Source: Escherichia coli (lineage in GTDB: Bacteria > Pseudomonadota > Gammaproteobacteria > Enterobacterales > Enterobacteriaceae). Taken from it: a DNA stretch of 64,000 nucleotides. The DNA is taken from the NCBI RefSeq assembly GCF_013315695.1, contig NZ_CP054353.1; one strand, given 5' to 3'. The position numbers were made by a program. This document shows positions 54,701-57,700 of the stretch, piece after piece. Position 1 is the first letter of the stretch. Every line of letters begins with the position of its first letter.

Positions 54701-57700
54701 GTGGCGCGTGATGTGACGCAAATGCATCAACTGGAAGGGGCGCGGCGTAACTTTTTTGCCAACGTGAGCCATGAGTTACGTACGCCATTGACCGTGTTAC
54801 AGGGTTACCTGGAGATGATGGATGAGCAACCGCTGGAAGGCGCGGTACGTGAAAAAGCGTTGCACACCATGCGCGAGCAGACACAGCGGATGGAAGGGCT
54901 GGTGAAGCAATTGCTGACGCTGTCGAAAATAGAAGCCGCACCGACGCAGTTGCTCAATGAAAAGGTTGATGTGCCGATGATGCTGCGCGTTGTTGAGCGC
55001 GAGGCTCAGACTCTGAGTCAGAAAAAACAGACATTTACCTTTGAGATAGATAACGGCCTCAAGGTGTCAGGCAACGAAGATCAGCTACGCAGTGCGATTT
55101 CGAACCTGGTCTATAACGCCGTGAATCATACGCCGGAAGGCACGCATATCACCGTACGCTGGCAGCGAGTGCCGCATGGTGCCGAATTTAGCGTTGAAGA
55201 TAACGGACCGGGCATTGCACCGGAGCATATTCCGCGCCTGACCGAGCGTTTTTATCGCGTTGATAAAGCGCGTTCCCGGCAAACCGGTGGTAGCGGATTA
55301 GGGTTAGCGATCGTGAAACATGCGGTGAATCATCACGAAAGTCGCCTGAATATTGAGAGTACAGTAGGAAAAGGTACACGTTTCAGTTTTGTTATCCCGG
55401 AACGTTTAATTGCCAAAAACAGCGATTAATTCGCCTTTGTCATCTTTTATTGCCATAAGCCAGCCGATGCTGGCTTATTTTCTTTGCAGTCGAAATACGG
55501 GCGTTAGATTTTACAATGGTTGGTGATTTTTTGTTCGCATGATTAGCCATGTCTTTTTCATTGAAATAGTGTTTTATACTGGTTGGTGATTTCTTATCGC
55601 TATATACCTCTGGTTTTTAGATCCCTTCTTGCTTTAAAACGTTATAAGCGTTTAAATTGCGCTTCAGGTGCTGTCATACTGACTGCATTTACGCGGTAAA
55701 TCGAAAAACTATTCTTCGCCGCGCCTGGTTGGGAGTATTTCCCGCTAAAATTGTTTAAATATACCGCTGTATCATCCCCAGGGATTGGCACAAAAATTTA
55801 ACGTTACAACACCACATCCACAGGCAGTATGATTTATGACCCATCAATTAAGATTGCGCGATATCATCGCTCTGGGCTTTATGACATTTGCGTTGTTCGT
55901 CGGCGCAGGTAACATTATTTTCCCTCCAATGGTCGGTTTGCAGGCAGGCGAACACGTCTGGACTGCGGCATTCGGCTTCCTCATTACTGCCGTCGGTCTG
56001 CCGGTATTAACGGTGGTGGCGCTGGCGAAAGTTGGCGGCGGTGTTGACAGCCTCAGCACGCCAATCGGTAAAGTCGCTGGCGTACTGCTGGCAACGGTGT
56101 GTTACCTGGCGGTGGGGCCGCTTTTCGCTACGCCGCGTACAGCTACCGTTTCTTTTGAAGTGGGCATTGCGCCGCTGACGGGTGATTCCGCGCTGCCGCT
56201 GTTTATCTACAGCTTGGTTTATTTCGCTATCGTTATTCTGGTTTCGCTCTATCCGGGCAAGCTGCTGGATACCGTGGGCAACTTCCTTGCACCGTTGAAA
56301 ATTATCGCGCTGGTCATCCTGTCTGTTGCCGCAATTATCTGGCCGGCGGGTTCTATCAGCACGGCGACTGAGGCTTATCAAAACGCTGCGTTTTCTAACG
56401 GCTTCGTTAACGGCTATCTGACCATGGATACGCTGGGCGCGATGGTGTTTGGTATCGTTATTGTTAACGCGGCGCGTTCTCGTGGCGTTACTGAAGCGCG
56501 TCTGCTGACCCGTTATACCGTCTGGGCTGGCCTGATGGCGGGTGTTGGTCTGACTCTGCTGTACCTGGCGCTGTTCCGTCTGGGTTCAGACAGCGCGTCG
56601 CTGGTCGATCAGTCTGCAAACGGCGCTGCTATTCTGCATGCTTACGTTCAGCACACCTTTGGCGGCGGCGGTAGCTTCCTGCTGGCGGCGTTAATCTTCA
56701 TCGCCTGCCTGGTCACGGCAGTTGGCCTGACCTGTGCTTGTGCAGAATTCTTTGCCCAGTACGTACCGCTCTCTTATCGTACGCTGGTGTTTATCCTCGG
56801 CGGCTTCTCGATGGTGGTGTCTAACCTCGGTTTGAGCCAGCTGATTCAGATCTCCGTACCGGTGCTGACCGCTATTTATCCGCCGTGTATCGCACTGGTT
56901 GTATTAAGTTTTACACGCTCATGGTGGCATAATTCGTCCCGCGTGATTGCTCCGCCGATGTTTATCAGCCTGCTTTTTGGTATTCTCGACGGGATCAAAG
57001 CATCTGCATTCAGCGATATCTTACCGTCCTGGGCGCAGCGTTTACCGCTGGCCGAACAAGGTCTGGCGTGGTTAATGCCAACAGTGGTGATGGTGGTTCT
57101 GGCCATTATCTGGGATCGCGCGGCAGGTCGTCAGGTGACCTCCAGCGCTCACTAAATCACTGAACATTTGTTTTAACCACGGGGCTGCGATGCCCCGTGG
57201 TTTTTTATTGTGTTGATGGGTTAGGAATTGATGGAAAGTAAGAACAAGCTAAAGCGTGGGCTAAGTACCCGCCACATACGCTTTATGGCACTGGGTTCAG
57301 CAATTGGCACCGGGTTGTTTTACGGTTCGGCAGACGCCATCAAAATGGCCGGTCCAAGCGTGTTGTTGGCCTATATTATCGGTGGTATCGCGGCGTATAT
57401 CATTATGCGCGCGCTGGGGGAAATGTCGGTACATAACCCGGCCGCCAGCTCTTTCTCGCGTTATGCGCAGGAAAACCTCGGACCGCTGGCAGGTTACATT
57501 ACCGGCTGGACCTACTGCTTTGAAATCCTAATTGTCGCCATCGCCGATGTGACCGCTTTTGGTATCTATATGGGTGTCTGGTTCCCGACGGTGCCGCACT
57601 GGATTTGGGTACTGAGCGTGGTGCTGATCATTTGCGCCGTAAACCTGATGAGCGTGAAGGTATTCGGTGAGCTGGAGTTCTGGTTCTCGTTCTTTAAAGT

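What the first reader, a model, noticed from the sequence alone, without database searches (positions are those of the whole stretch)
55518..55592. 13-bp direct repeat tggttggtgattt in the phoR-brnQ intergenic region
The exact 13-mer occurs twice 62 bp apart (55518-55530 and 55580-55592), each preceded by a -10-like tacaat or tatact, within the ~400-bp brnQ leader. This suggests duplicated promoter or regulator-binding modules (brnQ is Lrp-regulated).
Basis: seen in the sequence. Interest (0 to 1): 0.25.

Follow-up and report, generated by a model that had tools for sequence, protein, structure and literature searches.

The report
Repeated 13-mer in brnQ upstream Lrp region
The repeated 13-base word is real, but it lies upstream of the mapped brnQ promoter, in a stretch that binds the regulator Lrp in vitro, and it looks like a recent Escherichia-only resemblance between two spacer segments rather than a duplicated promoter or a conserved binding module.

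Summary
The copies are 63 bp apart start to start and extend to 24 nt at 88% identity. Shuffles give about 0.1 such repeats per 64 kb.

It is not in the brnQ leader. Two genome-wide TSS maps of E. coli K-12 put the main brnQ start at window 55666, giving a 170-nt 5' UTR. The copies therefore sit at -149 and -86, and no + strand TSS is recorded near either.

The exact 13-mer and the 'TACAAT' hexamer depend on a derived T found in 917 of 5426 complete E. coli genomes. Most genomes have CGGTTGGTGATTT, and K-12 has CGATTGGTGATTT. Outside Escherichia the two segments are no more alike than background.

A published Lrp genomic-SELEX peak (418,534 = window 55555) falls midway between the copies. Lrp-consensus-like 15-mers lie at -157, -124, -92 and -61, spaced 31-33 bp. 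This is the best such array in the window, and the two sites nearest the promoter keep the pattern across 70 species. The 13-mers occupy the linkers between sites 1-2 and 3-4.

Verdict: this is an ordinary, largely known regulatory region, and the repeat itself is probably incidental. Interest is low.

The parts
55517..55529 (.). 13-mer copy 1 (TGGTTGGTGATTT), at -149..-137 of the brnQ TSS. It forms the linker between Lrp-like sites 1 and 2.
   Evidence: It is polymorphic in E. coli: this allele is in 917 genomes, CGGTTGGTGATTT in 3841 and CGATTGGTGATTT in 362 of 5426. The 3' TTT runs into the conserved T-tract.
55580..55592 (.). 13-mer copy 2, at -86..-74. It forms the linker between Lrp-like sites 3 and 4 and overlaps the last 2 nt of site 3.
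   Evidence: The 30-mer around it is identical in 4980 of 5426 E. coli genomes, but it is poorly conserved in other genera.
55509..55532 (.). Extended copy 1 (24 nt).
   Evidence: 88% identical to 55572-55595; alignment score 33 against a shuffle maximum of 28.
55572..55595 (.). Extended copy 2 (24 nt).
55455..55478 (+). phoR intrinsic terminator hairpin, followed by TTTTCTTT.
   Evidence: 10-bp stem. The stem is conserved and the loop variable across 70 species.
55502..55516 (.). Lrp-consensus-like site 1 (CGTTAGATTTTACAA, 4 mismatches), centre -157.
   Evidence: At most 4 mismatches in 43% of 70 species against a 9% background.
55535..55549 (.). Lrp-consensus-like site 2 (TCGCATGATTAGCCA, 4 mismatches on the - strand), centre -124. 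It lies inside the ultra-conserved block.
   Evidence: at most 4 mismatches in 59% of species.
55567..55581 (+). Lrp-consensus-like site 3 (TAGTGTTTTATACTG, 2 mismatches), centre -92.
   Evidence: At most 4 mismatches in 77% and at most 3 in 37% of species, with differing sequences.
55598..55612 (+). Lrp-consensus-like site 4 (CGCTATATACCTCTG, 5 mismatches here), centre -61.
   Evidence: at most 3 mismatches in 74% and at most 4 in 90% of 70 species, for example TGGCATATTGTTCTG and CAGAATAATAGTCTG.
55527..55559 (.). Deeply conserved upstream block TTTTTTGTTCGCATGATTAGCCATGTCTTTTTC (-139..-107). No factor could be assigned.
   Evidence: at least 90% identity over 23 consecutive positions in 70 species from more than 25 genera.
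55629..55658 (+). brnQ sigma-70 promoter: -35 TTGCTT (55629-55634) and -10 TTAAAT/TAAATT (55652-55658).
   Evidence: Inferred from the mapped TSS and the promoter string in the Kim 2012 supplement. It lies in the most conserved block of the intergenic region.
55666..55666 (+). Main brnQ transcription start (K-12 418,645).
   Evidence: 54 reads, 5' UTR 170 nt; Cappable-seq score 15.3. The K-12 and window intergenic regions align without gaps.
55666..55835 (+). brnQ 5' UTR (170 nt), with a CA-rich stretch at 55805-55830 of the kind GcvB R1 targets.
   Evidence: Hairpins show modest covariation.
55836..57155 (+). brnQ coding sequence.
54134..55429 (+). phoR coding sequence.

Best explanation
The two 13-mers are a lineage-specific (Escherichia) resemblance between two linker segments of the upstream regulatory region of the brnQ sigma-70 promoter. 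They are not promoters, and they are probably not recognition elements themselves. The region from about -165 to -54 carries four Lrp-consensus-like 15-mers spaced 31-33 bp apart (three helical turns). Lrp, which assembles into octamers and hexadecamers, probably binds these cooperatively and wraps the DNA to modulate the promoter at 55629-55658. Copy 1 fills the gap between sites 1 and 2, and copy 2 the gap between sites 3 and 4, so their 63-bp spacing is simply two periods of the array. Each copy's T-run would fall on the same helical face. Shown here: the repeat, its position relative to the mapped TSS, its polymorphism, its lack of conservation, the phased consensus matches, and a published low-resolution in vitro Lrp peak. 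Inferred: that Lrp uses these particular sites, that the linkers are not read sequence-specifically, and the direction of regulation, which I could not determine.
For: Position. The TSS is at window 55666 in two independent maps, so the copies lie at -149 and -86.

Lrp binding. The Lrp genomic-SELEX peak at 418,534 corresponds to window 55555; the midpoint between the copies is 55554.5. The array used 60-nt probes every 105 bp. brnQ-proY is cited as part of the Lrp regulon.

Lrp-like sites. They lie at 55502, 55535, 55567 and 55598 with 4, 4, 2 and 5 mismatches. None of 300 dinucleotide shuffles reaches this array in the window, nor in 5 of 8 other species tested. It is the best phased four-site array in the whole 64 kb. 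Sites 3 and 4 keep the YAG...CTG pattern while their sequences change: at most 4 mismatches in 77% and 90% of 70 species against a 9% background.

The 13-mer as incidental. Similarity between the two copy regions is 16-20 of 27 only in Escherichia, against a background of about 11 elsewhere (within-genome mean 11.6, cross-genome 11.0). Copy 2 is unconserved. Two of the 11 variable sites among four E. coli intergenic sequences fall in copy 1. The T that completes the 13-mer is absent from 68 of 69 other species and is carried by 917 of 5426 E. coli genomes.
Against: No footprint or high-resolution ChIP places Lrp on the named 15-mers. The SELEX peak is good only to about +/-100 bp, and its coordinates may be offset.

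The Lrp consensus is degenerate and AT-rich, so matches are common in intergenic DNA. Sites 1 and 2 are weak, and site 4 is weak in E. coli itself.

Site 2 lies in a block far more conserved than any degenerate Lrp site needs to be, so another factor may be involved.

The repeat is statistically unusual in this genome, and copy 2 is fixed in 92% of E. coli. Selection on the repeated word within Escherichia is therefore not excluded.

The in vivo Lrp effect on brnQ is cited only second-hand.
Confidence: 0.55

Rival explanations
1. The repeated segments are themselves paired recognition elements for a DNA-binding protein. This could be Lrp reading non-consensus sites or another regulator. The elements would sit six helical turns apart on one face of the DNA and would have been acquired or sharpened in Escherichia.
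For: The repeat is above chance in this genome. The spacing of 63 bp equals 6.0 turns. The Lrp SELEX peak is centred between the copies. Copy 2 is nearly fixed in E. coli. The extended left arms overlap Lrp-like sites 1 and 3.
Against: The core is G/T-rich and does not match the Lrp consensus. In the repeat's register, copy 1 has 6-7 mismatches to it (my own alignment of the sequence read). I found no match when comparing by eye with the CRP, NtrC, PdhR/GntR-type, IHF and sigma-54 consensus sequences as I recall them, and the Pho box and IHF pattern searches gave no hit in the intergenic region. Copy 1 has three common alleles in E. coli. There is no co-variation of the two segments outside Escherichia.
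Confidence: 0.2
2. The repeat is pure coincidence or a neutral micro-event, such as a short gene conversion or slippage between two T/G-rich stretches, with no relation to any binding architecture.
For: The ancestral 12-mer and the K-12 10-mer are at chance level (0.45 and about 5 per window). The last base of identity comes from a recent SNP. Copy 2 is not conserved across genera.
Against: The 24-nt alignment beats all 2000 shuffles. The 63-bp spacing coincides with twice the period of the Lrp-like array.
Confidence: 0.2
3. The repeat marks duplicated sigma-70 promoter modules. In this reading TACAAT and TATACT are -10 elements that fire transcripts starting inside or just after each 13-mer.
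For: TACAAT and TATACT each match TATAAT at 5 of 6 positions. In this window TCGAAA-N16-TACAAT scores 9 of 12. Both SNPs that improve this site (G55492 and T55517) travel together in 914 of 5426 genomes. The TSS maps come from K-12, which lacks both SNPs, so a lineage-specific promoter at copy 1 is not excluded.
Against: No + strand TSS lies between 416,464 and 418,645 in Cappable-seq, a map of thousands of genome-wide TSSs, or in Kim 2012, although copy 2 and TATACT are identical in K-12. TATACT has no usable -35; TTGAAA lies only 8 bp upstream. Most E. coli carry TACAAC. Promoter-like hits in the region do not exceed the shuffles (1 against 1.7). The hexamers are not conserved in other genera.
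Confidence: 0.05

Closest known systems
Phased arrays of Lrp sites upstream of Lrp-controlled promoters such as ilvIH and pap (from my own knowledge of those systems, not tested here)
   Same: Several degenerate 15-bp sites of the YAGHAWATTWTDCTR type lie about three helical turns apart, upstream of a sigma-70 promoter of an amino-acid gene. Lrp binding to the region is seen in vitro.
   Different: No footprint exists for brnQ. The individual sites are weak matches (2-5 mismatches). The direction of regulation and the effect of leucine are unknown here.
Tandem sigma-70 promoters (P1/P2 arrangements)
   Same: Two -10-like hexamers lie 63 bp apart upstream of one gene.
   Different: No TSS is mapped at either hexamer in K-12. 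One hexamer is a minority allele, and neither is conserved.
Target-site duplication flanking a small insertion
   Same: Two direct repeats of 13 bp bracket a 50-bp segment.
   Different: The bracketed 50 bp contains the most conserved sequence of the whole intergenic region, present in all 70 species. It is therefore not an insertion.
GcvB sRNA control of brnQ through a CA-rich site
   Same: It concerns the same gene, and a conserved CA-rich stretch (55805-55830) lies in the 5' UTR.
   Different: This acts on the mRNA about 140-165 nt downstream of the TSS. The 13-mers are upstream of the TSS and so are not part of the mapped brnQ mRNA.

Membership tests
Sigma-70 promoter (duplicated) | -10 hexamer with A at position 2 and T at position 6 | tested here: met
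   TACAAT and TATACT are present in this window. However, the alleles in 3841 + 362 of 5426 E. coli genomes read TACAAC at copy 1.
Sigma-70 promoter (duplicated) | -35-like hexamer 16-18 bp upstream | tested here: inconclusive
   Copy 1 has TCGAAA at 16 bp (9 of 12 overall). No site was reported for TATACT. Hits in the region number 1 against 1.7 expected.
Sigma-70 promoter (duplicated) | A mapped transcription start 5-9 nt downstream | tested here: not met
   The K-12 TSS maps list 418,645, 418,738 and 418,819 only, with nothing on the + strand between 416,464 and 418,645. This was not tested in the window's own haplotype.
Lrp binding-site array | Match of the flagged 13-mer to the Lrp consensus YAGHAWATTWTDCTR | tested here: not met
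   No 15-mer with at most 3 mismatches is centred on either 13-mer. The best 15-mer overlapping copy 1 (55521-55535) has 5 mismatches.
Lrp binding-site array | Several consensus-like sites phased about 3 helical turns apart | tested here: met
   Sites at 55502, 55535, 55567 and 55598 are spaced 33, 32 and 31 bp. None of 300 shuffles reaches this, and it is the best array in the 64 kb.
Lrp binding-site array | Sites retained across related species | tested here: met
   Sites 3 and 4 have at most 4 mismatches in 77% and 90% of 70 species against a 9% background, and the sequences differ. Sites 1 and 2 are weaker, at 43% and 59%.
Lrp binding-site array | Lrp physically binds the region | tested here: met
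   This rests on literature only: Lrp genomic SELEX lists 418,534 in the phoR>brnQ spacer, at a resolution of about 100 bp.
Lrp binding-site array | brnQ expression changes in an lrp mutant or with leucine | not testable with these tools
   Only a second-hand citation is available: brnQ-proY is listed among Lrp-affected genes. The primary papers are not held.
Target-site duplication or mobile-element relic | The segment between the repeats is absent from relatives | tested here: not met
   The segment is present and highly conserved in all 70 species.
Leader peptide or attenuator | A conserved small ORF inside the transcript | tested here: not met
   The ORFs starting at 55539 (+) and 55550 (-) vary from 7 to 50 aa and lose their start codons in several species. 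They also lie upstream of the TSS.
Known RNA family (Rfam 15) | Covariance-model match | tested here: not met
   Only two chance-level hits, at 13 and 8.6 bits against gathering scores of 65 and 47.
Pho box (PhoB site) | Match to CTGTCATAWAWCTGTCAY | tested here: not met
   No match with at most 3 mismatches in the intergenic region. The same search recovers the boxes just upstream of phoB (53306-53334) and a strong match at 37246.

The most novel reading that the evidence does not exclude
In the haplotype carried by this window (about 17% of complete E. coli genomes), two linked SNPs (G55492 and T55517) turn TCAAAA-N16-TACAAC into TCGAAA-N16-TACAAT. This could have created a new upstream brnQ promoter that starts inside copy 1 and gives a leader of about 310 nt, one that would carry the G/U-rich 13-mers as RNA. 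The K-12 TSS maps cannot exclude this. Alternatively, the Escherichia-specific 13-mers may tune the geometry of the Lrp-DNA complex.
Probability: 0.1. Interest if true: 0.3.

Novelty: already known. Interest (0 to 1): 0.12.

Why it matters
It matters little. Lrp control of brnQ-proY and Lrp binding in this spacer are already in genome-wide datasets, and the brnQ promoter is mapped.

What this work adds is a site-level proposal: four phased Lrp-like sites at -157, -124, -92 and -61. It also shows that the eye-catching 13-mer is a young, polymorphic, Escherichia-only feature lying between those sites.

The more intriguing by-products are elsewhere. One is an unassigned block at -139..-107 that is nearly invariant across Enterobacteriaceae. 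The other is a conserved, partly structured 170-nt brnQ leader. Both deserve a footprint or a reporter test more than the repeat does.

Tried and rejected
- **Rfam:** a scan of 55300-55950 found nothing.
- **Pho box:** none in the intergenic region; the half-site CTGTCAT at 55672 is not a box.
- **IHF consensus:** no site in the intergenic region.
- **BaeR box (TTTTTCTCCATDATTGGC):** CATGATTAGC in the conserved block resembles its 3' half, but there is no match at up to 3 mismatches, so I rejected it.
- **Other consensus sequences:** I compared the 13-mer and the conserved block by eye with CRP, NtrC, sigma-54, PdhR/GntR-type, TorR, PurR and SlyA consensus sequences as I recall them. None fitted, and none was tested formally.
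- **Small ORFs:** MISHVFFIEIVFYTGW (+ strand, its stop inside copy 2), an 8-aa ORF starting at the window-specific ATG at 55516, and MANHANKK... (- strand) are not maintained across species.
- **Target-site duplication:** rejected, because the sequence between the copies is the most conserved part of the region.
- **63-bp tandem duplication:** only the 24-nt core aligns.
- **RNA pairing:** I considered pairing of the G/U-rich 13-mer with the CA-rich ribosome-binding region. The copies are not in the mapped mRNA.
- **Co-evolution of the two copies:** absent outside Escherichia.
- **RNAalifold on the 5' UTR:** returned no consensus structure.
- **Primary papers:** the Lrp ChIP papers (Cho 2008, 2011) and the Thomason 2015 TSS paper are not held.
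- **Salmonella:** not among the 80 loci returned, so it was not examined.

Full report
**Locus.** The window is E. coli. phoR runs 54134-55429 and brnQ 55836-57155, both on the + strand, separated by a 406-bp intergenic region. RefSeq annotates nothing in that region, and Rfam finds nothing there.

**The observation.** TGGTTGGTGATTT occurs exactly at 55517-55529 and 55580-55592.
- The similarity extends to 24 nt at 88% identity, 55509-55532 versus 55572-55595.
- Shuffles give 0.10 matches to the word per window.
- Shuffles give 0.125 local 13-mer repeats per window. Three are observed, and two of them belong to a coding tandem repeat near 61.6 kb.
- The local alignment score of 33 exceeds all 2000 shuffles and ranks in the top three in the window.

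So the repeat is real and mildly unusual in this genome.

**It is young and polymorphic.** Among 5426 complete E. coli genomes, exact-word searches with 30-mers gave these counts for copy 1:

| Copy 1 allele | Genomes |
|---|---|
| TACAATGGTTGGTGATTT (this window) | 917 |
| ...CAACGGTTGGTGATTT | 3841 |
| ...CAACGATTGGTGATTT (K-12) | 362 |

- The shared word is therefore a 12-mer in most strains (0.45 expected per window) and a 10-mer in K-12 (about 5 expected per window).
- Copy 2 is identical in 4980 genomes.
- In an alignment of 70 Enterobacteriaceae species, the base at 55517 is C in nearly all (ACG), so the T that completes both the 13-mer and 'TACAAT' is derived.
- Similarity between the two segments is 16-20 of 27 only in the four Escherichia sequences, about 13-14 in some Citrobacter, and at the background of about 11 elsewhere. 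The within-genome mean is 11.6 against a cross-genome mean of 11.0, so the copies do not co-evolve.

**Position relative to transcription.** Two genome-wide maps of K-12 place the brnQ start at 418,645. One gives 54 reads and a 170-nt 5' UTR (Kim 2012 supplement). The other is Cappable-seq, with a score of 15.3.
- The K-12 and window intergenic regions align without gaps, so the TSS is window 55666.
- The promoter is TTGCTT (55629-55634) and TTAAAT/TAAATT (55652-55658), inside the most conserved block of the region.
- The 13-mers are therefore at -149..-137 and -86..-74, upstream of the promoter and not in the leader.
- Cappable-seq lists no + strand TSS between 416,464 and 418,645. Its other starts, 418,738 and 418,819, are downstream.
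- Copy 2 with TATACT is identical in K-12, so a promoter there is unsupported.
- For copy 1 the K-12 data are not decisive. This window's haplotype carries two linked SNPs, G55492 and T55517, together in 914 genomes. They make TCGAAA-N16-TACAAT, a 9 of 12 match.

**What the region is.** The intergenic length (about 400-415 bp) and several blocks are conserved across more than 25 genera. The conserved elements are:
- the phoR terminator, 55455-55478;
- a block TTTTTTGTTCGCATGATTAGCCATGTCTTTTTC, 55527-55559;
- the promoter block, 55610-55662;
- parts of the 5' UTR, including a CA-rich stretch at 55805-55830 of the kind GcvB R1 targets (brnQ is a verified GcvB target in Salmonella).

**Lrp.** brnQ-proY is cited as Lrp-affected. 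The Lrp genomic-SELEX table lists a site at 418,534 in the phoR>brnQ spacer. That position is window 55555, against a midpoint between the copies of 55554.5. The array resolution is about 100 bp.

Scanning with the published SELEX consensus YAGHAWATTWTDCTR gives these sites:

| Site | Window position | Mismatches | Centre relative to TSS |
|---|---|---|---|
| 1 | 55502-55516 | 4 | -157 |
| 2 | 55535-55549 | 4 | -124 |
| 3 | 55567-55581 | 2 | -92 |
| 4 | 55598-55612 | 5 | -61 |

- The spacings are 33, 32 and 31 bp.
- No dinucleotide shuffle of the stretch reaches this array, in the window or in 5 of 8 other species tested (0 of 300 each).
- It is the best phased four-site array in the entire 64 kb.
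- Across 70 species, sites 3 and 4 keep at most 4 mismatches in 77% and 90% of cases against a 9% background, while their sequences differ. Examples are TAGCGAATTATTCTG, CAGTTAATAACTCTA, TGGCATATTGTTCTG and CAGAATAATAGTCTG.
- Sites 1 and 2 are weaker.

Copy 1 fills the linker between sites 1 and 2. Copy 2 fills the linker between sites 3 and 4 and shares only its first two bases with site 3.

**Most likely mechanism (confidence 0.55).** Lrp binds a phased array upstream of the brnQ promoter. The 13-mers are linker DNA whose resemblance arose recently in Escherichia, and their 63-bp spacing is two array periods. The steps that Lrp uses these exact sites and that the linkers are not read are inferred.

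**Rivals.**
- The 13-mers are real paired binding elements (0.2).
- Pure coincidence or a neutral micro-event (0.2).
- Duplicated promoters (0.05), surviving only as a possible lineage-specific promoter at copy 1.

**Considered and rejected.** These comprise a target-site duplication, a leader peptide, a Pho box, a BaeR box, IHF, and several factor consensus sequences recalled from memory. Details are in the tried-and-rejected field.

**Comparison and novelty.** The region works like the known Lrp site arrays (ilvIH and pap, from my own knowledge). The gene, the regulator and binding in this spacer are already on record at low resolution. The 13-mer itself is not a member of any known repeat family and is probably not functional as such. 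I rate the finding as already known and ordinary, with interest 0.12.

**Limits.**
- There is no high-resolution Lrp data.
- The primary Lrp ChIP papers are not held.
- Salmonella was not among the retrieved loci.
- The minus-strand part of the Cappable-seq table may have been cut when stored.
- The SELEX coordinates may carry an offset of tens of bases.

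Noticed in passing
window 55527-55559: The block TTTTTTGTTCGCATGATTAGCCATGTCTTTTTC at -139..-107 of brnQ is at least 90% identical over 23 or more consecutive bases in 70 species from more than 25 genera. 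That is far more conservation than a degenerate Lrp site needs. No factor could be assigned: the BaeR-box resemblance fails, and the small ORFs on both strands are not maintained.
   Followed up: partly
window 55666-55835: The 170-nt brnQ 5' UTR has conserved hairpins with modest covariation (65% of cells paired against 38-52% in slid controls; UA/CG exchange in the 55691-55724 helix). It also has a nearly invariant loop, UAAAUCGAAAAACUAUUCUUCG. There is no Rfam match, and RNAalifold gave no consensus structure.
   Followed up: partly
window 55674-55685 and 55821-55832: A 12-nt inverted repeat (92% complementary) could pair the 5' end of the leader with the sequence just upstream of the brnQ start codon. 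It appears specific to E. coli and was not tested further.
   Followed up: no
window 55787-55802: TGGCAC-N5-TTTA is a perfect sigma-54 -24 element with a poor -12. It lies about 60 bp from a published RpoN+NtrC genomic-SELEX peak (418,832 = window 55853). It is poorly conserved in other genera.
   Followed up: partly
window 55490-55517: A haplotype found in 914-917 of 5426 E. coli genomes carries two linked SNPs that create TCGAAA-N16-TACAAT (9 of 12 to the sigma-70 consensus). Other strains have TCAAAA...TACAAC.
   Followed up: partly
L003:1788-2485 (E. coli GDSC2BY4G; insertion point near window 55480): An IS1A element is inserted between the phoR terminator and the repeat region in one complete genome.
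   Followed up: no
window 55620-55623: A GATC (Dam) site inside the invariant TAGATCCC lies between Lrp-like site 4 and the -35 hexamer and is conserved in all 70 species.
   Followed up: no
window 61594-61709 (ORF 60764-62209, + strand): A coding tandem repeat of 12/24/36-nt period (EKIAEKIAKKTEEKIAKQ) lies in an AT-rich 481-aa ORF of unknown function. It accounts for the other local 13-mer repeats in the window.
   Followed up: partly
window 53306-53334 and 37246-37263: Strong Pho-box matches (2 mismatches each) lie upstream of phoB and at 37246 (CTGTCATAAAGTTGTCAC). They served as positive controls for the Pho-box search. The gene next to 37246 was not checked.
   Followed up: no
window 55759 and 55840: Cappable-seq lists two further + strand starts in K-12: 418,738 (score 12.3), preceded by TAAAAT at 55746-55751, and 418,819, just inside brnQ.
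   Followed up: no
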